Source: a virus
Strand: one strand, 5' to 3'
UHGV virus genome: UHGV-0248979
Length of the DNA stretch: 64,000 bases
The notes beneath the pieces are model-generated. The model made no database searches and was not told the origin of the DNA. It saw only the letters and a program-made list of their open reading frames with translations. The translations under genes and the position numbers were made by a program. This document shows, piece by piece, positions 41,713 to 57,044 of this stretch (positions within the stretch are counted from its first letter, which is position 1; each line of letters opens with the position of its first letter).

Positions 41713-41754
41713 TCCTTCTTTTAAGTCTCACACTATGTTTAAAAATTGTAAAAA

Positions 41755-41792
41755 TAAAAAGAAGTAACCTCTACCCGAAGGTAGAGGTTAAT
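41755..41792 (-). terminator. rho-independent terminator
   Basis: Hairpin aacctctacc-cgaa-ggtagaggtt with a T-run on the minus strand. Confidence 0.65.
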
Positions 41793-41793
41793 A

Positions 41794-42372
41794 TTATTTC
41801 GTTGTTGGGCTTTCTGTCTTCGACTTAAGCTGGCCTGATTTCTCAAGCTTCTTCTCAACAACTTTTGTGGCTATCTCAAGAGACTTATAAGCCAACGTTT
41901 TAATCGGCCAAGTCGCAAAAACAACCAATGCAAAGAACGGTACCAACGTCACAATCAGAACATCTAGACTGTCTTCTGGAAAATGTTGATGTGTGTCGTA
42001 ACCCAGGAACCCCGTTACAATAACCGTCGCCAACGTCAGAATGGCAATAATGAACTTCTGGGAAGCGGCTAATTTCGGCCATAAGGTTAGCATGGTTTCT
42101 TTACTAACCTCATCCCCGAGAGATTCCACAGCATCAGTTGCCTGCTGATGGAATTGTTCTGATAGTTTGCCTAAATTATCAATTAACGTCGGTCGTAAGT
42201 CGGAAAGAATCTTTGTTCCCGAACGGGTAACGTCAACATCGACTTCATCCCCATACGCCGCTTTCAAGAGTTTCGTTAACTGTTCAGATTGTTCTTTACT
42301 TAACTTTTTGTTTCCAGCTTGAATCAGCAAGTCAAGTATTTCAGTGGGTAGTGCTTGTGTGCTTGGTTCCAT
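41794..42372 (-). CDS. membrane protein (two predicted transmembrane helices)
   Basis: 192 aa; hydrophobic segments FIIAILTLATVIVTGFLGY and LIVTLVPFFALVVFATWPI. Confidence 0.6.
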   Translation of the reverse strand: MEPSTQALPTEILDLLIQAGNKKLSKEQSEQLTKLLKAAYGDEVDVDVTRSGTKILSDLRPTLIDNLGKLSEQFHQQATDAVESLGDEVSKETMLTLWPKLAASQKFIIAILTLATVIVTGFLGYDTHQHFPEDSLDVLIVTLVPFFALVVFATWPIKTLAYKSLEIATKVVEKKLEKSGQLKSKTESPTTK

Positions 42373-43016
42373 TAACGTTTTCTCCGACGCCTTCTCCGCC
42401 TGGAGGTCTTAGTCGACTTTTGTTTAGGCGGTAGCAAGCTATTTAAGTTTAACAGATTTACCCTGACGAAAATATTTCCCACCGCCACAGCATCAATGCT
42501 GTGCTCATCTAACGTTGTAATATCAAACAAAGCATGTTCACGGTAGAGCTTGGTCACGGCCCGAAACATATCGGTTTTATCCGTCCCCTTCGCTTCCACC
42601 CCAACGAATGATTTTACAATGATAGGATTGAAGCCGTGTAAAATTTTCTCCGGGTAAATATCCCACAAAGTACGTCGCAACATTAATTGTAGTTCGACGC
42701 CAGATTCATAAGCGGAGAGTTTTGCTCTCCGCATGAACGGTGTCTCAGTTGCAACGAAAGTTGGGCAGGCAATCCGAAGAAATTCACGGTAACAAGCTTC
42801 GAGCTTAACTAAACGATCGTCACGTTTACCGACACACTCTGCGAACGCATTTGGATGCGTTGGGTCTAATACATGCATGGTATCAGCCCAAACCACTTCG
42901 GCTTGATCGCTGCCGTATTCCCAATCCAATACTGCCATACCAAGATGGCTCGTACCGGGGTCTATTGCCGCGATTCTTACCATCTTATCTGGAAGTCTCG
43001 GCTCGGGTATCAACAT
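42372..43016 (-). CDS. RuvC-like Holliday junction resolvase with poly-Arg C-terminal tail
   Basis: N-terminal RIAAIDPGTSHLGMAVL resembling the RuvC/YqgF catalytic motif; C-terminal SRRRRRRRKR. Confidence 0.6.
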   Translation of the reverse strand: MLIPEPRLPDKMVRIAAIDPGTSHLGMAVLDWEYGSDQAEVVWADTMHVLDPTHPNAFAECVGKRDDRLVKLEACYREFLRIACPTFVATETPFMRRAKLSAYESGVELQLMLRRTLWDIYPEKILHGFNPIIVKSFVGVEAKGTDKTDMFRAVTKLYREHALFDITTLDEHSIDAVAVGNIFVRVNLLNLNSLLPPKQKSTKTSRRRRRRRKR

Positions 43017-43903
43017 CAGTTAGCTGTCCCCAGGAAGAACGGCGCAGGTTGTCCGATGCGAATGGTCAAAGACAGTTTGTCATTCGTCTGTGCCAGGTTG
43101 GTAAACATCGAAATATAGTACAGCGCCTGGACCCCAATCGCCTCGTTATAGCTGAATTTAGACCCAGCTGCAGAATCCCCGGACGCTACCTGGTCTAACC
43201 CAGAACAGAGTGCCAGTTCAGAGATAATTGAACTACGCGGACTACCACGCATAATGCTCGTTACGTTCATGTATTCCTGAACATCAAAGTCTGTCCACGG
43301 AATAACCAGGTCAGCACCAGATTCGACATAACGTCCGTCTGGAATTGCGACAGTACCATCGTCATCGTAATCGTAATCCGGCAATACTTTCGGCACGGGG
43401 TTTAATTCCGTGTCTGTGTACACAAAGTCTTCGACCGTCTCAACGCCGTTCTCACGCTTGATATCGTAGTCTGACGTTTTTACAGCACGCATGTCGATAC
43501 GTTTTAAGTAATACGCCCAATACTGACGTTTATTGATGGTTTCCAGAGTACGGAAGGCGTATTTCTTACGCTGTTCGTCAGACAGATCATTGTCTTTTGT
43601 ACGCAGGACAAACGGAACGCGGGAAAACATCCCGGAAGCAATAGGTTCTTTACCTACAGGTACAACGTCAGCCACCACATCAGAGGTGTCGACCATATGA
43701 CCACGGTTGCCAATTGCCATGTACTGCAAATGAGGACGCGCTTTACCATCCGGCACTGGCGTTTGCATGAGTTTATAGAACTCATTCAGTGTGGATTTTT
43801 GTGGGTATTGCACGTCAGCACCGGTAATTAATGCGGTAGCTAAACGCATCGCATTAAGCGTTACCGTCGAGAGTTTACCGTCGTAAACTTTGACATTAGA
43901 CAT
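43016..43903 (-). CDS. hypothetical protein
   Basis: 295-aa ORF. Confidence 0.6.
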   Translation of the reverse strand: MSNVKVYDGKLSTVTLNAMRLATALITGADVQYPQKSTLNEFYKLMQTPVPDGKARPHLQYMAIGNRGHMVDTSDVVADVVPVGKEPIASGMFSRVPFVLRTKDNDLSDEQRKKYAFRTLETINKRQYWAYYLKRIDMRAVKTSDYDIKRENGVETVEDFVYTDTELNPVPKVLPDYDYDDDGTVAIPDGRYVESGADLVIPWTDFDVQEYMNVTSIMRGSPRSSIISELALCSGLDQVASGDSAAGSKFSYNEAIGVQALYYISMFTNLAQTNDKLSLTIRIGQPAPFFLGTAN

Positions 43904-44423
43904 TGATTAATTCTCCTGGGCGGAACCCATCCAACGCCAATTTCGTCACAAGAGACGCCAATTTGCGTGGAGTGGAATCAGTAAATACGACCGGAATCGT
44001 TCCTTTAAAAGACAAATGATTCGGGACGAGACGAACATCATAAGAATCCAGTTCCTCTGAAATCGGCTCAATCATAATGTCGTCGGCACGCAGGTCGAGC
44101 CCTGTTTGTGCGACGATATAATCAGCCAACTCTTCGCTGGACGTTACTGCGCCTTTCGGTACACTCACCGGTTCATCGGCCAAGAACGTTGCCAAATCAA
44201 CGCGAGTTAAAATGAATTCCTGGTTACCGACAACGCCGTTACGGAAGACGGCAGCAACCTTTGATTCTAGTCCGTAACGTTGACGTTCTGCTAAGGTTAG
44301 CGGTTGAACGCCGTTTGCGTTAAACTCGATGTTATCAGCAGTATAGGATAGACTAAATACGTAGTTAATCCGGTCTACTAAAATTTGTTTAGGTGCTTTC
44401 GTTAAATCGACACGATATGCCAT
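43896..44423 (-). CDS. hypothetical protein
   Basis: 175-aa ORF. Confidence 0.6.
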   Translation of the reverse strand: MAYRVDLTKAPKQILVDRINYVFSLSYTADNIEFNANGVQPLTLAERQRYGLESKVAAVFRNGVVGNQEFILTRVDLATFLADEPVSVPKGAVTSSEELADYIVAQTGLDLRADDIMIEPISEELDSYDVRLVPNHLSFKGTIPVVFTDSTPRKLASLVTKLALDGFRPGELINV

Positions 44424-44430
44424 GGTTTTC

Positions 44431-46626
44431 TCACTTAGGTAGCTGGTCTAACGTAAACCCTTCGAGATCGTTAATTTTCACCTGTTCGCTTAACGACCAG
44501 TCGTCAAGTGAAGACTTGACCTTAACAACCCCGGTGGTCGGTTCATTAATATTCACCACGACTTGCTGATTCACTCTCACACGGATACCCATGTAAATGT
44601 TCATCCGTAGTTTGATGTGTTGCGGCATGGACAGCTCTTTAATCACCGGCGCTGCGGGAAGCACTTTGTCCGTCGTCATGTGTTGATGTCGCGTAACTGA
44701 CTGTACGCCTAAGAGAGGTTCAATGATGGTAACTGTACCCTCCCCACTCATAGGGATATCCCCTAAGATTGGACAAAGCGGGTCCATAACGTCGTAAGAA
44801 TCTGACCCCATCCGCGCAGCAAAATGTACGGTATACGACGAAAGCTTGGTCATCAATCGAACCATCGCACGTTGTATTTCAGATTGCGAAATAGTTGCAC
44901 GCGTTTCGAGGTTTGTTGCGGTGTTCAATGCATCAGTTGCGATATCTTGCCACGTCTCTGCGGAGACCAGTGTGTAGTCTAAACCGAAGGTCTTAAAGAA
45001 CTCATCGTAGTTACGATACTTTAACTTTAAATCACATCGGTAATCGCGATAATGGTAATCGAACAACATTAGGCCCGCTGCACGGTCGGGAATTTTACGG
45101 CGGTTTTGGCTGTAACGCCAACGGCGTCGCTTCTGCAAAATAATTTCATTAACAGTGTCGTAAAGTTCATCGGCACTGAGAATGGTTCCGACTACCTCGG
45201 TGTGGGTGTCGGTGTAGTAGTTAATCAGTGCGTCGAAACGGTGTTCCCAACTCGGGATAAGATGTTGTTCCATTTCATCGAACGAAACCCATCGTTTAAT
45301 CAAAACATCAAAAACGTTAAATACCGGGATTTCTTCAAGAGCGACATCGGAGTAACCTTTGTACGCGGCGTACAAAAACAACGCCAACAGCTCTTTCGAA
45401 CTCATTTTTAACGTGTCGCCGTTGGTCGGGTTAAGAATCTCGTGGTAGATGCTGTATTTTCCCTTCGCGACCAAATGCACCCATTCATTAAAGAGGTTAT
45501 GTGTGTATTCAAAACGCTCAATAGCTTCTGGGTCAACAGCGGTGACTTCTACGAGTTTCGTCGTTAAGTTGGGGTATTGTGTCAGACTCAGTCGGGTGTC
45601 TAAGTCTTCTTGATACTCCGGTTCGTACGCCGGGTTATTATACGCTAACCCCACCTCTTTTTGGATTATGTCCGTAGTGGCAACAATATCCAAATCGCGT
45701 CCAGAGTCTTTCTCTGTGTAGTTTAAAGATTGCTGATAGCCGATAGGTAACGGTGTTAAGGAATTATCATCGTTATCTTTCGGTTCGTGAATCTGCTGTG
45801 CAACATTATACCCAACCGCAGGCATTCCCCAACCTGTCAATAGCGCATCGATTTGCCAATCGAAGATCTCCTCTTTCCCTGAATTGCGTTCCCAGTATCG
45901 GATATTCCGATAAAGAATGAATTTTTGTTTCTGAGTCAGATACGGCATAAACTCATGCAGTTCCTGATGCGAAGCTAAAAATTCGGTAACGAAGAAAGAG
46001 TGCGTTTCTGTCGTATGCTGTAAAGAAGAACGTATATAACCAATTATGCCTGGTAACTGAGGAAACAACATGCAATAGAAAGCTAACACAAACGCATCGT
46101 TGTGGACCTTCCAACCCTCAGCCATGTAACGGACATGTGCCGCACGAATTCTCGCTTCCAGTCGGCTAATCAATGACGTCTCTTGCGATTCTACTAACGA
46201 GCTGTCGTAATACAAAATAGAACAATCGTCTACACGTAAAGCGTATTTTAAATCGATTGGCGTAAAGACGCCGCGAATATAAATCGCGTATTCGGGATAA
46301 CTTGCGATCAACGCCTCGATGTACTCAGCATTCGAACGAAAAACGTTAGAGGTCTTTTTATGACGGGACAGGTTGGCTGTCGTTAATTCTATCTGCTCTT
46401 GCGTGTCGAGCGACGTTATGTAAATGGGTTTATCCATTTCGTGACGTTGTCCTGCTAAATGCAGGTAGTATCGCCACGTACTACGGTTATCGGAAACGAA
46501 ACCGCCGTTCTCGGTTATTGCCAGATTCATCTGTTGTGCGATTGATTCTGATTTAATAATCAGCGATTTCGCCAACGTGATGTTCTGATCACGAAATATG
46601 TTAAATCTCTGCATCGGAGACCCCAA
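44431..46626 (-). CDS. large hypothetical protein (ATG start likely at 46614)
   Basis: 731 aa; no Walker motif or other recognisable signature. Confidence 0.65.
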   Translation of the reverse strand: MGSPMQRFNIFRDQNITLAKSLIIKSESIAQQMNLAITENGGFVSDNRSTWRYYLHLAGQRHEMDKPIYITSLDTQEQIELTTANLSRHKKTSNVFRSNAEYIEALIASYPEYAIYIRGVFTPIDLKYALRVDDCSILYYDSSLVESQETSLISRLEARIRAAHVRYMAEGWKVHNDAFVLAFYCMLFPQLPGIIGYIRSSLQHTTETHSFFVTEFLASHQELHEFMPYLTQKQKFILYRNIRYWERNSGKEEIFDWQIDALLTGWGMPAVGYNVAQQIHEPKDNDDNSLTPLPIGYQQSLNYTEKDSGRDLDIVATTDIIQKEVGLAYNNPAYEPEYQEDLDTRLSLTQYPNLTTKLVEVTAVDPEAIERFEYTHNLFNEWVHLVAKGKYSIYHEILNPTNGDTLKMSSKELLALFLYAAYKGYSDVALEEIPVFNVFDVLIKRWVSFDEMEQHLIPSWEHRFDALINYYTDTHTEVVGTILSADELYDTVNEIILQKRRRWRYSQNRRKIPDRAAGLMLFDYHYRDYRCDLKLKYRNYDEFFKTFGLDYTLVSAETWQDIATDALNTATNLETRATISQSEIQRAMVRLMTKLSSYTVHFAARMGSDSYDVMDPLCPILGDIPMSGEGTVTIIEPLLGVQSVTRHQHMTTDKVLPAAPVIKELSMPQHIKLRMNIYMGIRVRVNQQVVVNINEPTTGVVKVKSSLDDWSLSEQVKINDLEGFTLDQLPK

Positions 46627-49343
46627 TGGACGATATTAGTAAATTAACGGGCGACCCCGCCGTAGCTGCAATTCTTCGTAAAACTACGGGCCCAGCACCC
46701 CAGCAACAACGCGGTACGCGTAGCGAGGGTGGTTCTACGCCAACACGTCAGGAACTTGCAGGAATTGTAAGTTCGCGTATTCGTACTATCAAAAATGCGG
46801 AACGTATCTTTGATGCGTTACCTGAACTCGAAACGATTGTTACCATTGCAACTTCGAGCTTGCTGTCGACAAAAGACTTAATCAACACCACGTTGATTTA
46901 CGACAACATCGCAGACATTCCAATTGACTTACGTAATGACTTACTGACACCAACGCGTGATTATCATGATAACGTACGTCAATTACCTAAGAAATTATAT
47001 CAGTGGATTTACGACGCGTTAAAAACAAAAGGCGCAAGTCCAGTGATGATAATCTCGGACAATGGATTTGACCAGCTGTTCGGTTTAGACACCAAAATCG
47101 CTACCGAATCCATGCGTCGTTCTCAAGCCGCGTATTTCGAAGAACAACTCGGTATTCTCGGCCCAATCAACTCGCAAGATGACGGGCAACGCGTGGGTGT
47201 GGAATCTATTCTGAGTCGTGTCCGTGGACCTGTTAAAGGACCACAATCACTGAAAATCAATTTCAGTAACCATGATAAGATGTTCTCAGATAAGTTCGAA
47301 ATGGACATCTCGATTACCGACAACCCACGTATCACGTTACTGCCCCATGCTTATCGTCGAATCGCGCATGAGAACGCTCGTACTGGTCTCTACGGCCAAT
47401 TAGAGCAAGCCGCATATGAAAAGCCTGCCACACCGACAGGTGCTGCGCCGTATGAAGTTAATCAACAGTTTAACGATCGTCAGCGCGATGCGGCTGAAAA
47501 AGGTTTCATTAACTTAGGTGATCTGAACGAAGCGTACAAAAGTACACCAAAAACTCAGCTTTATGGTAACATCCCGATTATTTCGATGGATGAAAACAAC
47601 CAGATCGACTATTTCGAATGTTTACTCCCTGCTGAGTCTACCGCCCCGTTGGTTATTGGTGACGACGTTCGTAACCCTATTGGGTTTCTGACCATTATTG
47701 ACGATATGGGTAACTTCATCAACTCACGTTCCTCACTTTACGGGGACGCGAACTTTATGAACTACCTTAATAACGACGGCATGACAGACAGTATTATCAA
47801 CCGCTCTAATTTAGGCTTGGGTAATACCTCTCGTATAACGCCTGAAATCGCCAACCGTTTAAGTGCACGTTGCAGCGAGATTGCTGAGAACGAATTTACC
47901 CGCGCTTTAAGCCAGGCGTTGGGTGGTGCCGAAATCAGCATGAAAATTACCGAAACCTTCGGTCGTATTCTACTGGCACGTCACCTCGCAAAACGTCACA
48001 CACAGGTTGTCTATATCCCGGTTAATAACTTATGCTACTTTGCAACCGACTTTAACGAAGATGGTATCGGGGTGTCTATTACCGAACGTTCCTTTATCAT
48101 CTCCACGGTCAGGATGGCGCTGTTGTTCGCAACAATGAACTCTTCAGTGTTGAACTCAGCGCGTCACATGCAATATGACATTGAGCTATCGCCGGACGAT
48201 ATGAACGGTCAGAAAACAGTTGACCAAGTTAAATCGGATATCCTCAACTCCTATAATCGTCGTTTACCGATGTGGGGCGATATCAACGATGCCTGGTCAA
48301 TGGGGGCTAATGCCGGGATTGCATTTAACGTGACGGGTAACGAATACTACGCCAGTCATAAAGTGTCAGTTTCGGACACAACGCCTGAGTATAAAGTGCC
48401 CGATCAGCAAATCGATGAAAACTTACTCCGCCGTACTTGCCACATCGCGTGTGTAGACCCGGATCTTGTTTTGACACCAGAAAACCTGGAATTTGCTTCG
48501 CAGATTTATTCCAAGTCACTGCTGGTGACTCAACAAATCGTGAAGAAACAAGAAATCCTGTCTACGCCGTTAACACGCTACGTGACAAACAGTTTGCAAG
48601 CCTCTCCTAAGTTACAAGCAGAATTGATTCGTATTATCGTTGAGTATATTCGCAATCAAAATCCTAACGTAACAGGTGAAGACTTGACCAAGCAAACGTC
48701 AGAGTATCTGGCGAAGTTCATCAATGGCATGAAAGTCACCTTACCACCACCAGACACATCAGCTTCTTCTTCACAAGCGGATCTGTTCGATAAACGCTAT
48801 GAGTTCATTGAGAAACTGGCGGATCTGGTTGTTACCGACGACATTTCAAATATGCTTCAGAATGAAGGTATCGAAATGCAACCTGATGATCTCAAGACGA
48901 TGATTAAATCGTTCTATACGCGTAACTGGCTACGCAATCAGGGCATCGAAACCGATCTGTTTGATTTGATCTACGACGAAGATAAACGTGGCGAAAACGT
49001 CAAGATGATTTCTGATGAAATTGCATCGGCATCTAAAACGTTGATTCAGTTAGCAAAGCGTGCAACAGGTAAAGTTGAAACCTTAGCAAAAGCGGCTGAT
49101 TTGAATCCTGAGTACGCCAATAACTTCGGCGGGGGTAGCGACTTTGGTGGCGGGTCTGAAGACGACGGCGGCTTAGGTGGCGATGAGGACTTAGGTGGTG
49201 ACGATCTGGGTGGTGATGAAGACATGGACATGTCTGATGAAGAAACGACGGAAACCGATACGACAACGGAAGAAGACGTTTCTGCTGAAGACACGGACGA
49301 GACGGATACCGGTACAGACGACAACACCGACGAAACTCTCTAA
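46626..49343 (+). CDS. large protein with acidic Gly/Asp/Glu/Thr-rich C-terminal tail (possible virion protein)
   Basis: 905 aa; C-terminal ~70 aa low-complexity acidic (GGGSDFGGGSEDDGG...TDETDTGTDDNTDETL). Confidence 0.7.
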   Translation: MDDISKLTGDPAVAAILRKTTGPAPQQQRGTRSEGGSTPTRQELAGIVSSRIRTIKNAERIFDALPELETIVTIATSSLLSTKDLINTTLIYDNIADIPIDLRNDLLTPTRDYHDNVRQLPKKLYQWIYDALKTKGASPVMIISDNGFDQLFGLDTKIATESMRRSQAAYFEEQLGILGPINSQDDGQRVGVESILSRVRGPVKGPQSLKINFSNHDKMFSDKFEMDISITDNPRITLLPHAYRRIAHENARTGLYGQLEQAAYEKPATPTGAAPYEVNQQFNDRQRDAAEKGFINLGDLNEAYKSTPKTQLYGNIPIISMDENNQIDYFECLLPAESTAPLVIGDDVRNPIGFLTIIDDMGNFINSRSSLYGDANFMNYLNNDGMTDSIINRSNLGLGNTSRITPEIANRLSARCSEIAENEFTRALSQALGGAEISMKITETFGRILLARHLAKRHTQVVYIPVNNLCYFATDFNEDGIGVSITERSFIISTVRMALLFATMNSSVLNSARHMQYDIELSPDDMNGQKTVDQVKSDILNSYNRRLPMWGDINDAWSMGANAGIAFNVTGNEYYASHKVSVSDTTPEYKVPDQQIDENLLRRTCHIACVDPDLVLTPENLEFASQIYSKSLLVTQQIVKKQEILSTPLTRYVTNSLQASPKLQAELIRIIVEYIRNQNPNVTGEDLTKQTSEYLAKFINGMKVTLPPPDTSASSSQADLFDKRYEFIEKLADLVVTDDISNMLQNEGIEMQPDDLKTMIKSFYTRNWLRNQGIETDLFDLIYDEDKRGENVKMISDEIASASKTLIQLAKRATGKVETLAKAADLNPEYANNFGGGSDFGGGSEDDGGLGGDEDLGGDDLGGDEDMDMSDEETTETDTTTEEDVSAEDTDETDTGTDDNTDETL

Positions 49344-49354
49344 ATAGCAAAAAA

Positions 49355-49400
49355 AAAATAATTCGAGCTTACTCCGACCCTTCTGGGGTCGGAGTAGCTT
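49355..49400. terminator. bidirectional rho-independent terminator between convergent genes
   Basis: Hairpin gcttactccgaccc-ttct-ggggtcggagtagc flanked by an A-run upstream and a T-run downstream. Confidence 0.75.
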
Positions 49401-49404
49401 TTCT

Positions 49405-49710
49405 TTATTCGGACCATGCTATTTCGTCTTTATTAATAACATGGTCTAACATAATTCCTATCGCTAAAGGATCGTTATCAAACGCCATCAGTTTCGCTAA
49501 CAATTCTTGCTGACCTGATTTCTTGACGGCTTTCAGTAACTCATTACGTGCATTATAGTAGATAAGCCAGTATCTACCGCGATTGACTTTGGTGTTTGAA
49601 TGCTCTAAAAAGTAACGATTAAACTCCATGGTTGCATTGGTTTCAGGTAATTCGAAGCGAAAACGTGGACTACGTTCGTAGTTTACATTAATAACAACAT
49701 ATTTAATCAT
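49405..49710 (-). CDS. hypothetical protein
   Basis: 101-aa ORF. Confidence 0.5.
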   Translation of the reverse strand: MIKYVVINVNYERSPRFRFELPETNATMEFNRYFLEHSNTKVNRGRYWLIYYNARNELLKAVKKSGQQELLAKLMAFDNDPLAIGIMLDHVINKDEIAWSE

Positions 49711-49798
49711 TTCCTCATTCCCTCACTATAGTGGGCGGCTATAATAAATTGGGGAATAAAAATAAAGGAGGAGAGCCGAAGCTCTCCTGTGGGGGCGA

Positions 49799-50047
49799 TT
49801 AAACAATAGCGGCAATGCGTTCTTCTAACAACAATTTCTCTGCGGCCATTACCTCCAGTTCCGCAGTGATCAGTTTCACTTGGCGTTCGTCAATGAAAAT
49901 TGGGCGTTTTTCAATGAGCTGTTCGCGTTCATGTATCCGAACTTGGAGTTGGTATAACTCCAGATTAAGTTGTTGTTTTAAACGTGCGGCGGTATCAATC
50001 TCCTTTAACTCAATTTTTGTTTTACTATAATCAACATAGGCTGCCAT
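49799..50047 (-). CDS. hypothetical coiled-coil protein
   Basis: 82 aa with heptad-like Leu/Glu/Gln-rich sequence. Confidence 0.5.
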   Translation of the reverse strand: MAAYVDYSKTKIELKEIDTAARLKQQLNLELYQLQVRIHEREQLIEKRPIFIDERQVKLITAELEVMAAEKLLLEERIAAIV

Positions 50048-50091
50048 GATACTGTCCTGTGGTGTCTATAGATTAGGGGGCACGAAGCCCC

Positions 50092-51732
50092 TTAGTAACG
50101 CACCGGCGCGGTAATTTCACCATTGCTAAGCAGCGTGTACGATGCCGACGGCGTAGCCAGCTTCACAATAGCTTCAGGTGCGCGTTGGTTAATTGCTTCA
50201 TAGATACCGACGATAGGTTCAAACGCATTACCGAATGAGGAAATCTCTACGATATTGCGTCCTTTCGCAGACGGATAATCCGCAGGCAGCTGAATGGTGT
50301 ACGTTACGCGGCAAATTTCAATAGCATGATCGTTAGATTTCAGACGGAAATGTAGCTTACGAACAGAACGTGCGACCAGCAAGCACAGTTCGCGGAAGAA
50401 ATCCGCAGCCGTGGTTACGCCATTTTCACCGATGGTGCGCGGGAACAGAGTGTCACGGAAATATTCGAGATCGCTTAAGTTGCAATCGAATTGCACAAAT
50501 TTCGTACCTGGGATACCTTTACCGTAGTTTGTCGCAACAGAAATAGCGTTGTGAACCAAAACAGTGAGTGTTGCGTTAAACTGCTGACAGAACTCCACAC
50601 AGCTTTGTTTCAACGTTTCTGGCTCCTCAGCCTGGCTATTGAAATATTGCAGTAGGCATTCAGACATTTTACGGATGTGGAACACCATTTCGATAGTATT
50701 CTTCAGCATCTCTTCCGGATCGTCAATATCGCGAATGTCTTCAATACCATCAATTGCCTGACGGGTGGCGGTATAAAATTCTTGAAGGTAAGTTTTGCTC
50801 GAGTCCGTACTTACCATCGGGAACAATTTATACTCGCTTTCGGTTTTCACCATCACGTCCGCTTCATCATAGACGCAATAATCGATGTCTTTATTATCGA
50901 TGATTTCGTCAACCTTTTCAGACCAATTGCGGTGGCTTGAATACGGTGAATTTTTGATGCGTTCGTTGAGTTCTTTTGGCGTAAGAATGTTTTTCTTAAT
51001 CTGTTCTCTAAGTTCGTGATCTAAATAGTCTTCCACAATTTCTACCCGGAAATGATCGATGATAGGTTTATTGTAACGTTCGACAAGTTCTTCGATGGTT
51101 TTCTCGTCGAGCTCACGCGGCTTGTTAGCTTCCACCATAGAGTGCGAAACAGTCGGTTGTGGCTGTGCCTGTTGCACTGGTTGTTGTGCAGGCTGACCGA
51201 AGTTACCTTGCGGTTGCGCTGTTTGCTTCTGTTCCGCTGTGCGCGGATCGTAAGTTGACATTGGGATAGAACCCCCTTCTACCGCTGTTGCTGGTCGTGG
51301 GCTACCGTGGCCACTGCCTGTAAAGCTAGACGCGGGCATCGCTAAGCTCGGCGAAGCGGGCATTGTTGGGCCAGCGAAAGAGCTCGAATGTCCCATAAGC
51401 TGTTTAGCTTGTACCGCATACTGATTCGCCGTACGGAATTCCTGTTCCAGCTGGCTGTGAATACGCGGGTCCAATGGCTGCATACCACGCCCCAGTAAGT
51501 CACTATACAGCGTCGATTTAAATGTTGCCAGAATCGCCGATGCAGTTTCGTTATCTGGACGACGGTTGTATACAAACCACGTGGCGACGGTAACAGCATT
51601 ATCCATGTATTTGTCGTCATTCATTCCGGCAGCACGTGCTTGATTACAAAGGTATGATAAAAGTTCGTCGCGGCCACTAGAGATTGTGCTATAGATGTGG
51701 TTACGAATTGCGTCTTTATTGACAGTTGCCAT
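50092..51732 (-). CDS. hypothetical protein with Gln/Pro/Ala-rich linker (possible structural or assembly protein)
   Basis: 546 aa; low-complexity segment in the middle. Confidence 0.65.
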   Translation of the reverse strand: MATVNKDAIRNHIYSTISSGRDELLSYLCNQARAAGMNDDKYMDNAVTVATWFVYNRRPDNETASAILATFKSTLYSDLLGRGMQPLDPRIHSQLEQEFRTANQYAVQAKQLMGHSSSFAGPTMPASPSLAMPASSFTGSGHGSPRPATAVEGGSIPMSTYDPRTAEQKQTAQPQGNFGQPAQQPVQQAQPQPTVSHSMVEANKPRELDEKTIEELVERYNKPIIDHFRVEIVEDYLDHELREQIKKNILTPKELNERIKNSPYSSHRNWSEKVDEIIDNKDIDYCVYDEADVMVKTESEYKLFPMVSTDSSKTYLQEFYTATRQAIDGIEDIRDIDDPEEMLKNTIEMVFHIRKMSECLLQYFNSQAEEPETLKQSCVEFCQQFNATLTVLVHNAISVATNYGKGIPGTKFVQFDCNLSDLEYFRDTLFPRTIGENGVTTAADFFRELCLLVARSVRKLHFRLKSNDHAIEICRVTYTIQLPADYPSAKGRNIVEISSFGNAFEPIVGIYEAINQRAPEAIVKLATPSASYTLLSNGEITAPVRY

Positions 51733-51771: not shown

Positions 51772-53547
51772 TTAACGGCCAATCTTCGCAATGTCTTCTT
51801 CGGTTGCTTGGATCAAGTCGTTGAGTTTTGGATTACGTACCATCACCAGTTGGGTATTCGTCTTCATATACGGATTGAGAATGCCCGATTTGAACGGTGA
51901 TGATTTCGGAATGTAATACACGTTACCACATTCCAGATGAGATGCAGAGGCATGTTTTGTCCGGTCGTTAAGGTTAACCGTCTTACCGCCCTTGCTGCTA
52001 CGTTTTGATTCTGTTTCTGTCTGGCTGATAGCATGGGTTGAAACCCCCAGCACCATAGACTCTGTAGAAGCGTTGAAATAACTTACACCGCCGTTACCGG
52101 TAATGTTCCGCAATACCAGGCTGGTTACAATGTCTTTATTCAACGCACTGCGTATCATGTTCGCACAAGACTCCGGTGTTCTATTCTCCGTTTGTCCCAA
52201 GTGAAAACGAATCGCAGCAATGGTAGGTGTAAAACCACGCTCACCTAATAACAGGTAATCTGTTACGGTCAGACGTTTTCCATACATTGACGGAATATCG
52301 CCTTGTTTCGTGAGACGCGTTCTCACCATCAACTTCGTCGCGTACCAGAAGAAATCAAACATATCCATATCGTCCGGGATATCGGGATCTGACATCATTA
52401 ACTCGCCACGGAATGTTGAGTTAACGTAGCGTTCACACTCCGTATAGTGTTTCGTCATGCTGTGTGCCAGTTCAATATCAGACGGTTTAAGTCCAACAAT
52501 ACTTCTCCCCAAAATCTCCCGCCAAATTGCGGAGGAATTCAGGTTTACAACATCGTCCTCCATTGCAAGTTCATTAATAGCGGTAAACAACGGCGGTAAA
52601 GGAACAACGTTGCCGTTTTTAATCGCTTGTTTTCCGCAATAATAGTGCGCTGCTTTAAAGAATGCAGAAATCGCTACGAGTAATAAGTGTTCGTTTTGAT
52701 CCCATCCCGCTTTATCGAGATTCGGTAAAGCCTCTGCAGGAACCGTCACTACGTACATAATCGCCCGATTATGCTTAGGTTCACCTGAACCGATTACTAC
52801 TTTTTTATCGAGATCGATTTCAGGTACTTTGAATGCAGGATATATCTCTACATCCACACCAGTATAACGTTTGATGGCTTCCTTAAATCCATAACGTCCG
52901 AATAACCAGTACATTAACGGTTTCTCGTCCGTATCAGGATGTGTGGCGTTTTTGGCTTTAAACAAATTGTTTGTTCCGGGCAAGAACAACTCTTCTTTCT
53001 TCCCATTCACTAAAATACGTACCGGGTGCTTACAGAATTTTAGTGACGCTTTACGTTTAAAGTCAAAATTAACAAACACCCCGCCATGCTCACGACAGAT
53101 ACCCGGCTGATGAATAACAGGCGCAACGTGGTACGTTGTCCCGTAATAGTTCATCAACCCACCACGACGAATGAATGGCAAGTTAATCGGTCTTGAGATC
53201 GGCCTTGAGTCGCCAGGAATACGGAACGACGACATGACCATATACGCATCGGTATTCGCTATAGACATCACCCCACGACGTTTATCCATTCTGCTGCTCT
53301 CTGAGCGAGACAACTTGTAGATAAAAGTTTCGAACGGCGACATTAAACGAACACCCAATACAGCCAAGCCTTCAGGAACACGCGGATTCTCTACAGGATG
53401 GTAATCTAGCTCACGTTTCAAGATACGATGCACACGATCGTGAATACCATCTTTGGCTTGTGTATATCCGACTCCTTCCGCAATCGCGCGGTTAAAGGGT
53501 ACTATTTTACCACTCTCTTTAAGCTTTTTGATTGCATCTTTAAACAC
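51772..53547 (-). CDS. hypothetical large protein (possible structural or assembly protein)
   Basis: 591-aa ORF co-oriented with the putative capsid gene. Confidence 0.65.
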   Translation of the reverse strand: MFKDAIKKLKESGKIVPFNRAIAEGVGYTQAKDGIHDRVHRILKRELDYHPVENPRVPEGLAVLGVRLMSPFETFIYKLSRSESSRMDKRRGVMSIANTDAYMVMSSFRIPGDSRPISRPINLPFIRRGGLMNYYGTTYHVAPVIHQPGICREHGGVFVNFDFKRKASLKFCKHPVRILVNGKKEELFLPGTNNLFKAKNATHPDTDEKPLMYWLFGRYGFKEAIKRYTGVDVEIYPAFKVPEIDLDKKVVIGSGEPKHNRAIMYVVTVPAEALPNLDKAGWDQNEHLLLVAISAFFKAAHYYCGKQAIKNGNVVPLPPLFTAINELAMEDDVVNLNSSAIWREILGRSIVGLKPSDIELAHSMTKHYTECERYVNSTFRGELMMSDPDIPDDMDMFDFFWYATKLMVRTRLTKQGDIPSMYGKRLTVTDYLLLGERGFTPTIAAIRFHLGQTENRTPESCANMIRSALNKDIVTSLVLRNITGNGGVSYFNASTESMVLGVSTHAISQTETESKRSSKGGKTVNLNDRTKHASASHLECGNVYYIPKSSPFKSGILNPYMKTNTQLVMVRNPKLNDLIQATEEDIAKIGR

Positions 53548-54749: not shown

Positions 54750-57044
54750 TTACTTACCGGCAGCAGCTTTGCCTTCGCCAGCAACGTTACCTGCTACACC
54801 ACCTTCGGTTTGTTTCTGACCGTTCTGTTCAACAGAAACATTGTAAGCCAGTTTTTCTTCAACCAGTTTGGTGATGCCTTTAACCCAGATCAGACCAGTG
54901 ATCGGGCAGTGGCAGATGTGCGCGTTACGCGGCTGTACGGCCAGCTCTTTAGAGGTAGAGCCGTTACGCTGAATGTTGATGTTAGTAACCATGATCGGAG
55001 ACCAGAAGTGGTTACCCCAGTTCAGCACGTTGTAGGAACCATCGTCCGCAGTCGGAACTTTCAGGAACCATTGCAGACGACGAGTCCAGGAACCGTCAGC
55101 TGCGTTGTAGATACGCCAGCGGTCATCGTTGGTGGTGATCACTTCGTATTCGTAGCGATCGCCCAGCAGACGTTGGTCGCCCTGTACCAGCAGCAGCATG
55201 GATGCAGTCGGTTCGTCGGTTGCAATAACAACCTTCGGCAGAATGTCCGGATCAGCAGTGTACAGACGCAGCGCAGGAATGAAGCGAGATTCCTGGATAG
55301 CCTGAGTTACCTGATTACCGATACGCTGTACCAGACCCTGACGAGCGTTGATCAGTGCTTCTTTGGTATCCAGGGACTGTACAACTTTATCAACGTTGTA
55401 GTCAGACTCTTTGAACCACGGAGCAACCCAGTGACGGCCCAGACCACGAATGGCCGGTTTGTCCCACGGAGTGATCATGCTTGCAGCAGCGTTACGTACC
55501 GCTTCGGTGTAAGACAGTGTCTGAGTGATAGCCAACTGTTCGTTACGGATGTTAACTGCGGAAATCAGGTCGTCCAGACGCTCGGTATCGTCGTATTCAA
55601 CGCCAACCGGAGACTTGGTCAGAATCGGAGAACCGTATTGCAGCTTGTAGTTTTCTTGTTCCCAGATTGGGTCGAGCAGCAGACCCTGGGTACGACGGTT
55701 TTCGTTGGTACGAGTACCATCGAAACGCCAGCCGATCAGTTCAAGTTTCAGATTTTCCAGGACAGCTTTGCCGGTACCAGTCTTAATATCAACTTTGTTA
55801 CCGGTAGCGTCGTACAGACCTTCGATTTCCAGTTTGTGACCAGCGATGTCAACTTTACCACCGAACTGACCGGTAGTGAACAGAGACATGTTGATGGTGA
55901 TCACATAACGCAGGGTGTAGGAGTTCTGTTCCAGTGTTTTCAGAGCCGGAATAGCTTCGCCTTTCCAGTCGGTAGTTTTCGCGTTCAGAGAGAACGCAGT
56001 ACGACGGAATTGCAGTACCAGCTCACGGCCATCACCTTCAGCAGGGCGCTGGAAGGTTGCGAACTGCATGTCGCGAACGTGCAGTTTAATGAATTTACCT
56101 GCTTTTGCATCTTCAGCCGCTTTACGTACGGAAATCAGCAGGCTGCCCAGAGCACAGCCCGGCGCGATTTCATCAGTTTCGTCGTAACCTTCGATTACGA
56201 TACCCGGATGCGCGGACAGCTGGAACAGGTTCAGAGTGTCTTTAGCAAAGCTCAGGTAGTTAGTCGGGTACGGAGGTACACGACCCAGACGAACAGATTC
56301 GTTCGGTACCAGATCTTCGCTTACGAAGTATTCAGCGTTTTCACCGGTTTCCATTACGTAAGGAACGATGTTGATCGCTTCGTCCTGGAGAACAGTGTGG
56401 TCAGTCAGCGCTTCATGTAAGTTACGACGATGATCTTCAACAACGTCTTTGCTCAGCAGTGCGTTCATTACACCGCGAGAAACGGTGGTCACTTTGGTAC
56501 GTACGGTAATACCAACATCGTTAGTGTCAACAGTGATGGTCGGGAACAGAGTCTCAGCAAAACGAGACTGGGTTTCCAGAGCACGTACGTTCAGCGTCCA
56601 GGTCAGACCCAGGTTTTTGTCGTAGTCTTTGTTGGTGTAGTATTCCTGAGCGACAACCATACGCTCTTTGCCCCAGTCGCCGTTACCAGCTTGGGAGCCA
56701 GGAATCGCAACGTCCAGGTTAAAACGGCTATGGAATTCCGGTTTAGCGTATTCTTGAGCTACTTTTTCTTGCAGGTCCATACCGTGACCAGCAGCACCCA
56801 GAATCATTGCAGAAGCAACTTCCGCAGCGTGGGACATTTTCTTACCGCCAGCAAACGCGTTTGCGTAGTGCTGTGCAGCGTCGTCACGCAGGGTACCAAA
56901 AACTTTAGTGTTGCTACGTACAGATTCACCAGCAACGATGGTGTTCCACATTTCGCCAGCAGTGTTGTTACTAATGACGCTTTGTACCAGCGAGTTACCA
57001 GCTTGTACGAGTTTCTCCAGATTAGAGATTCGGGTATCTTTCAT
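54750..57044 (-). CDS. major virion structural protein, probable major capsid protein
   Basis: 764 aa; codon usage visibly distinct (GC-rich third positions, CTG/CGT/GGT/CAG) as in very highly expressed genes; flanked by strong terminators. Capsid versus sheath not resolved. Confidence 0.45.
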   Translation of the reverse strand: MKDTRISNLEKLVQAGNSLVQSVISNNTAGEMWNTIVAGESVRSNTKVFGTLRDDAAQHYANAFAGGKKMSHAAEVASAMILGAAGHGMDLQEKVAQEYAKPEFHSRFNLDVAIPGSQAGNGDWGKERMVVAQEYYTNKDYDKNLGLTWTLNVRALETQSRFAETLFPTITVDTNDVGITVRTKVTTVSRGVMNALLSKDVVEDHRRNLHEALTDHTVLQDEAINIVPYVMETGENAEYFVSEDLVPNESVRLGRVPPYPTNYLSFAKDTLNLFQLSAHPGIVIEGYDETDEIAPGCALGSLLISVRKAAEDAKAGKFIKLHVRDMQFATFQRPAEGDGRELVLQFRRTAFSLNAKTTDWKGEAIPALKTLEQNSYTLRYVITINMSLFTTGQFGGKVDIAGHKLEIEGLYDATGNKVDIKTGTGKAVLENLKLELIGWRFDGTRTNENRRTQGLLLDPIWEQENYKLQYGSPILTKSPVGVEYDDTERLDDLISAVNIRNEQLAITQTLSYTEAVRNAAASMITPWDKPAIRGLGRHWVAPWFKESDYNVDKVVQSLDTKEALINARQGLVQRIGNQVTQAIQESRFIPALRLYTADPDILPKVVIATDEPTASMLLLVQGDQRLLGDRYEYEVITTNDDRWRIYNAADGSWTRRLQWFLKVPTADDGSYNVLNWGNHFWSPIMVTNINIQRNGSTSKELAVQPRNAHICHCPITGLIWVKGITKLVEEKLAYNVSVEQNGQKQTEGGVAGNVAGEGKAAAGK

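What the first reader, a model, noticed from the sequence alone, without database searches (positions are those of the whole stretch)
46612..49343. Divergent large genes with near-adjacent starts; one has a long acidic tail
The 731-aa minus-strand gene and the 905-aa plus-strand gene have start codons only about 12 nt apart, leaving no room for separate promoter regions; one start may be misplaced or transcription initiates inside the partner gene. The 905-aa protein ends in a ~70-aa Gly/Asp/Glu/Thr low-complexity tail, a feature seen on some portal or internal head proteins.
Basis: partly seen in the sequence, partly recalled or inferred. Interest (0 to 1): 0.35.

Follow-up and report, generated by a model that had tools for sequence, protein, structure and literature searches.

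The report
Jumbo-phage portal facing baseplate operon
This is the portal gene of an uncultured SPN3US-like giant phage, placed head-to-head with its baseplate-wedge operon, with 11 bases between the start codons that carry a ribosome-binding site for each gene; the layout and the acidic tail are conserved across this phage family, so the finding is real but largely ordinary.

Summary
The minus-strand gene starts at ATG 46614 and encodes 727 aa (731 aa only if the ORF is extended to a non-conserved TTG). The plus-strand gene starts at ATG 46626 and encodes 905 aa. The spacer is 11 nt (CGGAGACCCCA). Residues 831-905 hold 30 Asp/Glu and no Lys/Arg.

The 905-aa protein is the portal, the orthologue of SPN3US gp81, phiKZ gp129 and Goslar gp36. 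The 727-aa protein is a baseplate wedge protein, the homologue of phiKZ gp128 and Goslar gp35.

Neither start is misplaced. The same head-to-head junction, with a conserved core YGGAGAC in an 11-15 nt spacer, occurs in all 17 related genomes examined, and both N-termini are conserved from residue 1. The spacer carries two back-to-back Shine-Dalgarno sites, GGAG for the portal and GGGGU for the wedge gene.

A conserved A-run/hairpin/T-run terminator follows the portal gene, and all neighbouring genes run the other way. Each gene's promoter and leader must therefore lie inside the partner's first codons. This is an inference; no transcription starts have been mapped. It is plausible because these phages use their own RNA polymerase with very small promoters.

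The acidic tail is a family-wide extension beyond the portal crown. It was not modelled in the Goslar cryo-EM structure, and its function is unknown.

The parts
44431..46614 (-). Baseplate wedge protein gene (727 aa from the ATG), first gene of a leftward baseplate operon
   Evidence: PHROG 3222, E 1.5e-281, full length. PDB 9xqs_C PHIKZ128, E 2.6e-82, and 11lx_Bh (803 aa, the annotated length of Goslar gp35; my assignment), E 2.4e-77. phiKZ gp128 is the wedge subunit (PMC13250141).
43896..44423 (-). 175-aa virion structural protein (DUF7941), second gene of the operon
   Evidence: Pfam PF25613, E 1.7e-13. PHROG 2935, E 2.3e-48. No hit among solved structures.
43016..43903 (-). 295-aa baseplate protein, homologue of phiKZ gp139 and 11lx_Aa (294 aa, taken here to be Goslar gp32, the spoke protein)
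   Evidence: PDB 9xpg_A PHIKZ139, E 1.5e-34, and 11lx_Aa, E 1.1e-35. The gp139 dimer contacts wedge gp128 in phiKZ.
46615..46625 (.). 11-nt spacer CGGAGACCCCA between the two start codons
   Evidence: Identical in SPN3US, phiEaH2, Asesino and four IMG/VR contigs. The core GGAGAC is invariant in 17 genomes.
46616..46619 (+). Shine-Dalgarno GGAG for the portal, 6 nt before the ATG
   Evidence: Duplex with the anti-SD is -6.6 kcal/mol, against a median of -5.9 for the window's genes. Only 2% of random positions are as strong.
46620..46624 (-). Shine-Dalgarno-like GGGGU for the wedge gene, 5 nt before its ATG
   Evidence: Duplex with the anti-SD is -5.4 kcal/mol, within the interquartile range of the window's genes. 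5.5% of random positions are as strong. CR5 and Derbicus have GGAG at this place.
46626..49343 (+). Portal protein gene (905 aa), a single-gene plus-strand unit in a long run of minus-strand genes
   Evidence: PHROG 3004, E 5.7e-303. PDB 9xpe_M PHIKZ129, E 4.3e-42, and 11ed_J 'Portal Protein gp36', E 2.7e-25. 72-73% identity to the SPN3US, phiEaH2 and Asesino portals. Strand layout.
46626..47372 (+). Predicted N-terminal propeptide (residues 1-249) with prohead-protease sites ATE-161 (47100-47108) and AHE-249 (47364-47372)
   Evidence: Both sites align with the SPN3US gp81 cleavage sites ATE-161 and AQE-254. Those sites were mapped by mass spectrometry (PMC10052503; PMC5694885).
49116..49340 (+). 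Acidic Gly/Asp/Glu/Thr C-terminal tail (residues 831-905)
   Evidence: Composition. An acidic C-terminal tail is seen in all 14 family portals examined. The Goslar model ends at residue 923 of 969. The tail evolves faster than the body among 91-99% relatives, without indels, and has no DNA tandem repeat.
49349..49409 (.). A-run, GC-rich hairpin (49369-49397) and T-rich run: a bidirectional-type intrinsic terminator between the portal and the convergent 101-aa gene
   Evidence: The same A-run/hairpin/T-run architecture, with different stem sequences, is found in 7 lineages.
46597..46600 (+). Candidate (weak) phiKZ-type late promoter core TATG. If G46600 is +1, the portal leader is 26 nt.
   Evidence: It is the only TATG within 200 nt upstream on this strand. 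It is created by the rare Ile codon ATA (10% of Ile codons). TATG or TATTG is present in 5 of 6 lineages, but SPN3US has AATG.
46629..46646 (.). Portal codons 2-7 (GAC GAT ATT AGT AAA TTA), with raised synonymous conservation. Candidate site of the wedge promoter or leader on the minus strand.
   Evidence: Codon identity over portal codons 1-10 is 0.76. The gene median is 0.48 and the 95th percentile of sliding windows is 0.67 (n = 6 codons).
46606..46620 (+). Small hairpin UCUCUG-CAU-CGGAGA that would sequester the portal SD in its leader
   Evidence: -5.1 kcal/mol. The 5' arm is made by wedge codon 3, which is AGA or AGG in 7 of 7 lineages, although AGR is only 13% of Arg codons. No compensatory changes were seen.

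Best explanation
The locus is the conserved head-to-head junction between two late structural transcription units of a Chimalliviridae jumbo phage of the SPN3US/phiEaH2 group. One unit is a leftward baseplate operon: a wedge protein homologous to phiKZ gp128, a DUF7941 protein, and a gp139-type protein. The other is a rightward single-gene unit encoding the portal protein.

Both annotated ATG starts are correct. The 11-bp spacer is about as short as it can be while still holding two ribosome-binding sites back to back. These are GGAG, 6 nt before the portal ATG on the top strand, and GGGGU, 5 nt before the wedge ATG on the bottom strand.

Both mRNAs need that spacer in their leaders. Each transcript must therefore start inside the first codons of the partner gene, and the two 5' ends overlap in antisense by at least 11 nt. 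This step is inferred. It is workable because the phage encodes its own non-virion RNA polymerase; a homologue of the promoter-reading subunit phiKZ gp123 lies 2.4 kb away. In phiKZ this polymerase needs only a tiny motif at the start site, which can sit in coding DNA. Both products are low-copy virion parts (12 portal and 6 wedge subunits per virion in phiKZ), so weak embedded promoters would be enough.

Portal transcription ends at a conserved hairpin terminator. That terminator also blocks minus-strand read-through from upstream genes.

The portal is made as a precursor. Residues 1-249 are predicted to be removed by the prohead protease at ATE-161 and AHE-249. The 75-aa polyanionic tail extends beyond the crown domain. 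It is probably disordered and, like all portal C-termini, faces the capsid interior. Its role is not known; candidates are electrostatic management of DNA at the channel mouth and a docking site for basic internal proteins.
For: Identity. PDB sequence hits to the phiKZ portal gp129 (E 4.3e-42) and to 'Portal Protein gp36' (969 aa, the annotated length of the Goslar portal; E 2.7e-25). Hits to phiKZ wedge gp128 (E 2.6e-82). Full-length PHROG matches. Roles taken from the cryo-EM papers. 72-73% identity and the same gene order in SPN3US, phiEaH2 and Asesino. The SPN3US protease sites are conserved.

Starts. The junction is conserved in 17 genomes. Both N-termini are conserved from Met1. Spacer indels of 1 and 4 nt occur in relatives. 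SD strengths are typical of the window's genes.

Autonomous units. The portal is the only large plus-strand gene between 4478 and 57594. An A-run/hairpin/T-run terminator follows the portal in 7 lineages, with different stems. Bidirectional intrinsic terminators have been mapped in the related phage 201phi2-1 (PMC11512511).

Polymerase. The 591-aa gene at 51772-53547 is homologous to phiKZ gp123. The phiKZ late promoter is TATG with G as +1, read by gp123 (PMC4666361 and PMC12809450). Sigma-70-like sites occur at chance level (7 found against 7.3 expected).

Embedded signals. Synonymous conservation is raised in portal codons 1-10. Rare ATA and AGR codons are conserved at wedge codons 6 and 3.

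General design. A second head-to-head junction at 57581/57595 has an 11-14 nt spacer with an SD on each strand. It is conserved in SPN3US and CR5.

Tail. An acidic C-terminal tail is seen in all 14 family portals examined. The Goslar model stops at residue 923 of 969.
Against: No transcription start data exist for this phage group in the papers I could reach, so the intragenic promoters are inferred, not seen. No promoter-like motif of the kinds visible elsewhere in the window lies within 200 nt of either start. This covers the early motif AGATATATATTAC, the GTGAG-type motif downstream of terminators, and TTTACC. The one TATG is AATG in SPN3US. Only about 5 of the 14 gp123 residues that contact TATG in phiKZ are conserved or conservatively replaced, in a low-confidence alignment, so promoter specificity may differ. 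The synonymous-conservation signal rests on 6 codons. Together with the rare codons, it could equally reflect selection on translation initiation at the 5' ends of the two genes. On the minus strand the T-run lies 10 nt beyond the terminator stem, so some read-through cannot be excluded.
Confidence: 0.8

Rival explanations
1. One of the two start codons is mis-called, and the true intergenic region is large enough for ordinary promoters.
For: the ORF listing reports a different start (TTG 46626) for the minus gene. Some public annotations choose other starts: Derbicus 2886/2956, PA02 with a truncated wedge, PhiPA3 with a truncated portal.
Against: MQRFNIFRDQ and MDDISKLTGDPAV are conserved from Met1 across 7 lineages, while the spacer varies by 1-4 nt. 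The next in-frame Met would remove residues that align with the solved phiKZ gp128 (from residue 4) and with the portals 11ed and 36za (from residue 10). No start codon lies upstream of the portal ATG in its ORF. The Goslar portal is modelled from residue 5. The aberrant annotations carry the same junction sequence as their relatives.
Confidence: 0.04
2. There are no local promoters. The portal is transcribed from a distant plus-strand start, antisense through the baseplate operon. The wedge operon is transcribed by read-through from the minus-strand genes upstream, antisense across the whole portal gene.
For: No recognisable promoter motif lies near the junction. The terminator's T-run is offset by 10 nt on the minus strand. 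Extensive read-through and overlapping transcription units are reported for phiKZ (PMC10914365).
Against: A strong hairpin flanked by an A-run and a T-run is conserved in 7 lineages exactly between the portal and the upstream minus-strand gene. Read-through would mean 2.7 kb of head-on antisense transcription across an essential late gene. On the plus strand, the nearest large upstream plus-strand gene ends at 4477, about 42 kb away.
Confidence: 0.12
3. The mRNAs start inside the spacer or at the ATGs, giving leaderless or near-leaderless translation, so nothing needs to lie in the partner gene.
For: The phiKZ promoter core sits at -3 to +1, so a start very close to the ATG is mechanically possible.
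Against: SD-like sequences at canonical spacing are conserved on both strands here and at the second tight junction. Even a start within the spacer would put the -3 to +1 core and the polymerase footprint over the partner's start codon.
Confidence: 0.05
4. The acidic tail is a dispensable low-complexity appendage, a product of drift or slippage, with no function.
For: The sequence cannot be aligned between genera. It evolves faster than the body among close relatives (90.7% against 99.3% identity). It is unresolved in cryo-EM.
Against: Length (about 55-97 aa in the 11 portals with a measurable K/R-free tail), near-absence of Lys/Arg and 29-43% Asp+Glu are kept in that subset, including genera only about 20% identical in the ordered part. 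No indels occur among 91-99% relatives, and there is no DNA repeat that would drive slippage.
Confidence: 0.15

Closest known systems
Salmonella phage SPN3US gp81 (portal; RefSeq ACQ60_gp185) and its divergent neighbour 'virion structural protein 9' (ACQ60_gp184)
   Same: Same two genes in the same head-to-head order, with an identical 11-nt spacer CGGAGACCCCA. About 72% portal identity. The protease site ATE-161 is at the same residue, and AQE-254 aligns with AHE-249. The acidic tail, the downstream terminator and the flanking genes are the same.
   Different: About 28% of portal residues differ, and the tail sequence cannot be aligned. SPN3US has AATG where the window has TATG. The window's closest relatives are uncultured IMG/VR contigs at 91-99% identity.
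Pseudomonas phage phiKZ gp129 (portal, PDB 9XPE) and gp128 (baseplate wedge, PDB 9XQS)
   Same: Homologous proteins (E 4e-42 and 3e-82). They are also divergent neighbours, and the portal also ends in an acidic tail.
   Different: The spacer is 35 nt once the truncated public start calls are corrected (my reading), not 11. Identity is low, about 23% in the tblastn match to phiKZ-like phages. The reported phiKZ protease motif is looser (from memory).
Escherichia phage Goslar gp36 (portal) and gp35 (upper wedge)
   Same: Homologous pair, divergent, with a 27-nt spacer. The portal crown is followed by an acidic Ser/Thr/Asp/Glu tail that is absent from the model, which ends at residue 923 of 969.
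   Different: The Goslar N-terminal region (from residue 5) is part of the wing in the virion, whereas SPN3US removes about 254 N-terminal residues. The Goslar tail is richer in Ser/Thr.
T4 gp20 portal
   Same: The cryo-EM and modelling papers report a shared portal architecture of clip, stem, wing and crown for phiKZ gp129, Goslar gp36 and SPN3US gp81.
   Different: No detectable sequence similarity. T4 gp20 is not proteolytically processed (PMC5694885). I did not check whether it carries a comparable acidic tail.
phiKZ nvRNAP late promoters (TATG, G = +1)
   Same: The phage encodes a gp123 homologue. One TATG lies 26 nt upstream of the portal ATG.
   Different: The motif is not conserved in SPN3US. 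TATG is not enriched upstream of the window's genes (about 7 by my informal count of the list, against about 5.7 expected from the frequencies). Most TATG-contacting residues differ.
Overlapping divergent promoters in bacteria (from memory, not checked here: symmetric -10 elements that give divergent starts a few tens of bp apart)
   Same: Two divergent starts share one short stretch of DNA, possibly with mutual interference.
   Different: Those use host sigma-70 holoenzyme and lie in non-coding DNA. Here the polymerase is phage-encoded and the signals would lie in coding DNA.

Membership tests
Chimalliviridae portal protein (phiKZ gp129 / SPN3US gp81 / Goslar gp36; PHROG 3004) | Significant sequence similarity to a protein shown by cryo-EM to form the dodecameric portal | tested here: met
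   9xpe_M PHIKZ129, E 4.3e-42 (12 chains). 11ed_J 'Portal Protein gp36', E 2.7e-25. 36za_o8, E 1.9e-20 (12 chains).
Chimalliviridae portal protein (phiKZ gp129 / SPN3US gp81 / Goslar gp36; PHROG 3004) | Full-length match to the family profile | tested here: met
   PHROG 3004, E 5.7e-303, residues 2-903 against profile positions 14-928 of 931. No Pfam family matches.
Chimalliviridae portal protein (phiKZ gp129 / SPN3US gp81 / Goslar gp36; PHROG 3004) | Prohead-protease (A-x-E) maturation sites that bound a long N-terminal propeptide | tested here: met
   ATE-161 and AHE-249 align with the SPN3US sites ATE-161 and AQE-254, which were mapped by mass spectrometry. Cleavage itself was not tested.
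Chimalliviridae portal protein (phiKZ gp129 / SPN3US gp81 / Goslar gp36; PHROG 3004) | Clip/stem/wing/crown fold | not tested
   No structure prediction was run. The fold is inferred from homology to the solved portals.
Chimalliviridae portal protein (phiKZ gp129 / SPN3US gp81 / Goslar gp36; PHROG 3004) | Twelve copies at the unique capsid vertex | not testable with these tools
   Needs virion structure or proteomics for this phage.
Baseplate wedge protein (phiKZ gp128 / Goslar gp35; PHROG 3222) | Sequence similarity to a protein placed in the baseplate wedge by cryo-EM, over most of its length | tested here: met
   9xqs_C PHIKZ128, E 2.6e-82, residues 4-636. 11lx_Bh, E 2.4e-77. PHROG 3222, E 1.5e-281, full length.
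Baseplate wedge protein (phiKZ gp128 / Goslar gp35; PHROG 3222) | Gene neighbourhood with other baseplate parts | tested here: met
   A gp139/gp32-type protein lies two genes downstream. The same order is found in relatives.
phiKZ-type late promoter (TATG, G = +1, read by the gp123 subunit) | TATG at a suitable distance upstream of the gene and conserved among relatives | tested here: inconclusive
   For the portal, TATG at 46597-46600 is present in the window, phiEaH2 and Asesino. Machina, Kwan and CR5 have TATTG, and SPN3US has AATG. For the wedge gene there is no TATG within 200 nt.
phiKZ-type late promoter (TATG, G = +1, read by the gp123 subunit) | Conservation of the gp123 pocket residues that contact TATG | tested here: inconclusive
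   Phe151, His331, Tyr399 (to Phe), Ser334 (to Thr) and Ser402 (to Thr) are kept. Nine others differ, in a low-identity phmmer alignment.
Host sigma-70 promoters | -35/-10 hexamers upstream of either gene, above chance and conserved | tested here: not met
   7 sites found against 7.3 expected. None lies on the plus strand upstream of the portal. The two minus-strand sites inside the portal ORF are not conserved in SPN3US.

The most novel reading that the evidence does not exclude
The two mRNAs must share at least the 11-nt spacer in antisense, and probably 30-50 nt, and both ribosome-binding sites lie in that shared stretch. The junction could therefore act as a built-in coupling device between head (portal) and tail (baseplate) gene expression. 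Initiation by two polymerases on overlapping promoters would be mutually exclusive, and the two 5' leaders could pair with each other to occlude both SDs. Either effect would tune the two low-copy structural proteins against each other. The conserved rare codons at wedge codons 3 and 6, and the small hairpin that hides the portal SD, would belong to this control.
Probability: 0.12. Interest if true: 0.5.

Novelty: new member of a known kind. Interest (0 to 1): 0.22.

Why it matters
The value is mainly for annotation. It identifies the portal, a baseplate wedge protein and a spoke-type protein on an uncultured SPN3US-like jumbo phage, predicts the portal's maturation sites, and shows that the unusually tight head-to-head start codons are real rather than a gene-calling error.

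Two smaller points may interest specialists.
- In this clade, at least two divergent junctions have been compressed to 11-15 nt, just enough for two back-to-back ribosome-binding sites. Promoters and leaders must then live inside coding DNA. A TSS map of SPN3US could use this as a test case for how small the promoters of phage multisubunit RNA polymerases can be.
- The polyanionic tail (12 copies with a net charge of about -30 each) was present in every Chimalliviridae portal examined. It is missing from the Goslar model and has no assigned function.

Tried and rejected
- Sigma-70 promoter scan of 46000-50200: hits at chance level and not conserved.
- Motifs visible elsewhere in the window: the early-promoter-like AGATATATATTAC (4 full copies on the minus strand), a GTGAG(A) motif found 13-37 nt upstream of several genes just after terminators, and TTTACC next to SDs. 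None occurs within 200 nt upstream of either start.
- TATG as a general late-promoter mark in this phage: not enriched in upstream regions, about 7 by my informal count of the list against about 5.7 expected.
- Transfer of phiKZ promoter specificity through conservation of the gp123 pocket: inconclusive.
- Published transcription start sites for phiKZ gp128/gp129 or 201phi2-1 gp213/gp214: the supplementary tables are not held, the 2014 phiKZ transcriptome paper is not held, and no SPN3US transcriptome paper was found.
- A resemblance between TAATTTACT 23 nt upstream of the wedge ATG and the same 9-mer 24 nt upstream of the PhiPA3 portal ATG, and to the phiKZ middle motif AAanTTACc: noted, but the geometry (motif centred at -24 from the start site) would leave no room for the SD, so I did not build on it.
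- DNA tandem repeats as the origin of the tail: none.
- Structure prediction and large homologue searches: not run, because sequence matches to solved portal and wedge structures already settle identity.
Full report
**1. The observation.**
The ORF listing and the raw sequence show a plus-strand ORF at 46626..49343 (905 aa, ATG start) and a minus-strand ORF at 44431..46626. The 731-aa length of the minus ORF comes from a TTG at 46626. Four codons further in is an ATG at 46614-46612, which gives 727 aa. Between the two ATGs lie 11 nt, 46615-46625 (CGGAGACCCCA).

The C-terminal 75 residues of the 905-aa protein (831-905, nt 49116-49340) are 25% Asp, 20% Gly, 16% Thr and 15% Glu. They hold 30 acidic and no basic residues. 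Both parts of the observation are therefore real.

**2. What the genes are.**
- **Source.** The window comes from a jumbo phage of the SPN3US/phiEaH2 group. Megablast of 44000-50000 finds Erwinia phages (phiEaH2, Stratton, Asesino) and Salmonella SPN3US-like phages at 73-76% nucleotide identity. The best portal identity to any cultured phage is about 73%. IMG/VR holds uncultured contigs of 150-225 kb whose portal genes are 91-99% identical.
- **The 905-aa protein.** It matches PHROG 3004 over its full length (E 5.7e-303). By plain phmmer it also matches three solved chains. These are PHIKZ129 (9xpe, 12 chains, E 4.3e-42), 'Portal Protein gp36' (11ed, 969 aa, E 2.7e-25) and a 917-aa protein present in 12 copies in 36za. 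The phiKZ structural atlas identifies gp129 as the dodecameric portal (PMC13250141). The Goslar preprint identifies gp36 as the portal. SPN3US gp81 is the genetically and proteomically characterised portal (PMC5694885).
- **The 727-aa protein.** It matches PHROG 3222 (E 1.5e-281) and PHIKZ128 (9xqs, E 2.6e-82). It also matches the 803-aa chain 11lx_Bh, which has the annotated length of Goslar gp35 (my assignment). In phiKZ, gp128 with two gp87 forms each baseplate wedge. Goslar gp35 is an upper-wedge protein.
- **Downstream genes.** Two genes downstream, the 295-aa protein is a homologue of phiKZ gp139 and of chain 11lx_Aa (294 aa, taken here to be Goslar gp32). In phiKZ the gp139 dimer touches gp128; in Goslar gp32 forms the spokes. 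The gene between them is a DUF7941 virion protein.
- **Summary.** The junction separates a baseplate operon, running leftward, from the portal gene, running rightward.

**3. Are the starts right?**
I compared the junction in 16 related genomes plus the window.
- **Spacer.** All have CAT-(0-4 nt)-YGGAGAC-(4-8 nt)-ATG. The spacer is 11 nt in the window, SPN3US, phiEaH2, Asesino and four IMG/VR contigs. It is 12 nt in the Kwan group and 15 nt in the Machina group and in CR5/Derbicus.
- **TTG extension.** The 1-nt and 4-nt indels change the reading frame upstream of the wedge ATG, so the TTG extension is not conserved.
- **N-termini.** The wedge protein starts MQRFNIFRDQ in six of the seven representative lineages (CR5 has MQRYNIFVGQ), and the portal begins MDD(I/Y)SKL in most of them (Kwan differs).
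- **Solved homologues.** Alignments begin at residue 4 of the wedge protein and residue 10 of the portal. The Goslar portal is modelled from residue 5.
- **Alternative starts.** No start codon exists upstream of the portal ATG within its ORF.
- **Discordant annotations.** A few public annotations pick other starts (Derbicus, PA02, PhiPA3), but their DNA carries the same junction as their relatives.

I conclude that neither start is misplaced.

**4. What is in the spacer.**
On the plus strand, GGAG (46616-46619) lies 6 nt before the portal ATG. On the minus strand, GGGGU (complement of 46620-46624) lies 5 nt before the wedge ATG. CR5 and Derbicus have GGAG on both strands.

Predicted pairing with the anti-Shine-Dalgarno sequence is -6.6 kcal/mol for the portal and -5.4 kcal/mol for the wedge gene. 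The median for 57 genes of the window is -5.9, and the 5th percentile of random positions is -5.5. The spacer is thus two ribosome-binding sites placed back to back and overlapping by two bases.

The same design recurs at the window's other tight divergent junction, 57581/57595 (spacer TTAAGGATGCTCC, with AAGGA on one strand and GGAG on the other). That junction lies between the first gene of the major-capsid operon and a DnaB-like helicase gene. It is conserved with 14 nt in SPN3US and 11 nt in CR5.

Across the wider family the wedge/portal pair is always divergent, but the spacer is longer. It is 26 nt in Vibrio phage pVp-JHP1101, 27 in Goslar, 32 in Simmy50, 47 in RSF1 and 64 in KpLz-2_45. 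In phiKZ-like phages and PhiPA3 it is 35 nt after correcting truncated start calls. The extreme compression is a trait of the SPN3US/Erwinia clade.

**5. Where transcription must start (inference).**
- **Strand layout.** The portal is the only large plus-strand gene between about 4.5 kb and 57.6 kb of the window.
- **Terminator.** Directly after its stop codon comes a run of ten A, a 13-bp GC-rich hairpin (49369-49397) and a T-rich run. The same A-run/hairpin/T-run is present in all seven lineages, with different stem sequences. This is the signature of a terminator that works in both directions. Such bidirectional terminators were mapped in the related phage 201phi2-1 (PMC11512511).
- **Consequence for each strand.** Minus-strand transcripts from the upstream genes should stop before entering the portal gene, and nothing upstream can supply plus-strand transcripts. 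Each unit therefore needs its own promoter.
- **Consequence for position.** Both SDs lie in the 11-nt spacer, so each mRNA must begin inside the partner's coding sequence, and the two 5' ends overlap in antisense.
- **Why this is not paradoxical.** Phages of this family transcribe independently of the host polymerase. The window encodes a homologue of phiKZ gp123 (51772-53547, E 1.9e-17 to 7ogp_E). In phiKZ, gp123 is the beta-like subunit of the non-virion RNA polymerase and reads the late-promoter consensus T(-3)ATG(+1) at the start site itself (PMC4666361; PMC12809450). A review states that middle and late promoters of these phages cannot be predicted from sequence (PMC7598289).

**6. Searching for the embedded signals.**
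The results are weak and are reported as such.
- **Known motifs.** Nothing resembling the window's own early-promoter repeat, a GTGAG-type motif seen after several terminators, or TTTACC lies within 200 nt of either start.
- **TATG.** One TATG (46597-46600) lies on the portal strand. If its G is +1, the leader is 26 nt. It is created by a rare ATA Ile codon (10% of Ile codons) at wedge codon 6. TATG or TATTG occurs at this place in five of six lineages, but SPN3US has AATG.
- **Wedge codon 3.** It is AGA or AGG in 7 of 7 lineages, although AGR makes up only 13% of Arg codons. On the portal strand this yields YCUYUG, which can pair with CGGAGA in a small hairpin (-5.1 kcal/mol) that would cover the portal SD. 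No compensatory changes support it.
- **Portal codons 1-10.** Codon identity at conserved residues is 0.76, against a gene median of 0.48 and a 95th percentile of 0.67 (only 6 informative codons).
- **Interpretation.** These features fit embedded promoters or leaders. They fit equally well the known selection on the first codons of genes for efficient initiation.
- **gp123 pocket.** Of the 14 phiKZ gp123 residues that contact TATG, about five are conserved or conservatively replaced in a low-identity alignment. The promoter core of this clade may therefore differ from TATG.

**7. The portal protein itself.**
The two SPN3US cleavage sites of the prohead protease gp245, ATE-161 and AQE-254, were mapped by mass spectrometry (PMC10052503). 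They align with ATE-161 and AHE-249 in the window's protein. The mature portal is therefore predicted to be residues 250-905.

An acidic C-terminal tail is seen in all 14 family portals examined. Eleven of them have a Lys/Arg-free C-terminal stretch of 55-97 aa with 29-43% Asp+Glu. The other three (CR5, PhiPA3, Simmy50) carry a Lys within the last few residues but are otherwise similarly acidic. The phiKZ alignment runs into the tail.

In Goslar the crown domain is modelled to residue 923 of 969, so the acidic tail is absent from the model. This is what a disordered segment would give. Among relatives 91-99% identical, the tail changes faster than the body (90.7% against 99.3% in the closest) but keeps its length. 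No DNA tandem repeat underlies it.

Portal C-termini face the capsid interior (established for solved portals; inference here). Twelve tails would then place roughly 360 negative charges at the inner mouth of the channel. What they do there is not known. Repelling or organising DNA at the channel, or binding basic internal or ejection proteins during prohead assembly, are the obvious candidates.

**8. Verdict.**
The finding is real and is now explained in its main lines. It is the portal gene and the baseplate-wedge operon of an uncultured SPN3US-like jumbo phage, in a head-to-head arrangement conserved throughout the family and compressed to two back-to-back ribosome-binding sites in this clade.

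The 'misplaced start' alternative is rejected. The 'initiation inside the partner gene' alternative is the best-supported inference, but it awaits 5'-end mapping.

Nothing here departs from known kinds of systems. The genes are new members of known families, and the layout is already present, though not discussed in the papers I read, in public genomes.

Noticed in passing
57057-59157 (junction 57582-57594): A second head-to-head pair. A 174-aa protein of unknown function (PHROG 8266), the first gene of the operon that contains the major capsid gene 54750-57044, faces a DnaB-like helicase gene. The 13-nt spacer TTAAGGATGCTCC carries an SD on each strand. It is conserved in SPN3US (14 nt) and CR5 (11 nt).
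   Followed up: partly
minus strand, motif starts near 61582, 34421, 15347 and 11103: Four copies of CAGATATATATTACCTAGGTGAGAG in intergenic DNA, usually just after a hairpin and T-run. It resembles the AT-rich early (virion RNA polymerase) promoter described for phiKZ-like phages.
   Followed up: partly
3308-3316, 18091-18100, 18632-18640: Homopolymer runs of 9-10 C on the plus strand (G-runs on the coding strand) in three intergenic regions. Function unknown; such runs could also be prone to slippage.
   Followed up: no
59158-60499: A 1.3-kb stretch without long ORFs holds three small paralogous minus-strand ORFs: 59300-59461, 59686-59859 and 59950-60120 (53-57 aa). Two share ...QLG.(N/D)KRLKPS.N...QIFTE(R/K)RS..Y. 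Each lies next to a GC-rich hairpin.
   Followed up: no
42372-43016 (-): A RuvC-like Holliday junction resolvase homologue (PHROG 159) ends in an unusual poly-arginine tail, SRRRRRRRKR.
   Followed up: no
51772-53547 (-): Homologue of phiKZ gp123, the beta-like subunit of the non-virion RNA polymerase that reads the late-promoter core. Most of the TATG-contacting residues of phiKZ gp123 differ here, which hints at a different promoter core in the SPN3US clade.
   Followed up: partly
7860-8027, 29094-29166, 35093-35206, 41713-41793, 49711-49798 (minus strand): A recurrent module of hairpin, T-run, about 30-60 nt, then (T/A)-rich-GTGAG(A), 13-37 nt before the start codon. This may be a promoter or initial-transcribed-sequence class of this phage. 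GTGAG also follows the early motif.
   Followed up: partly
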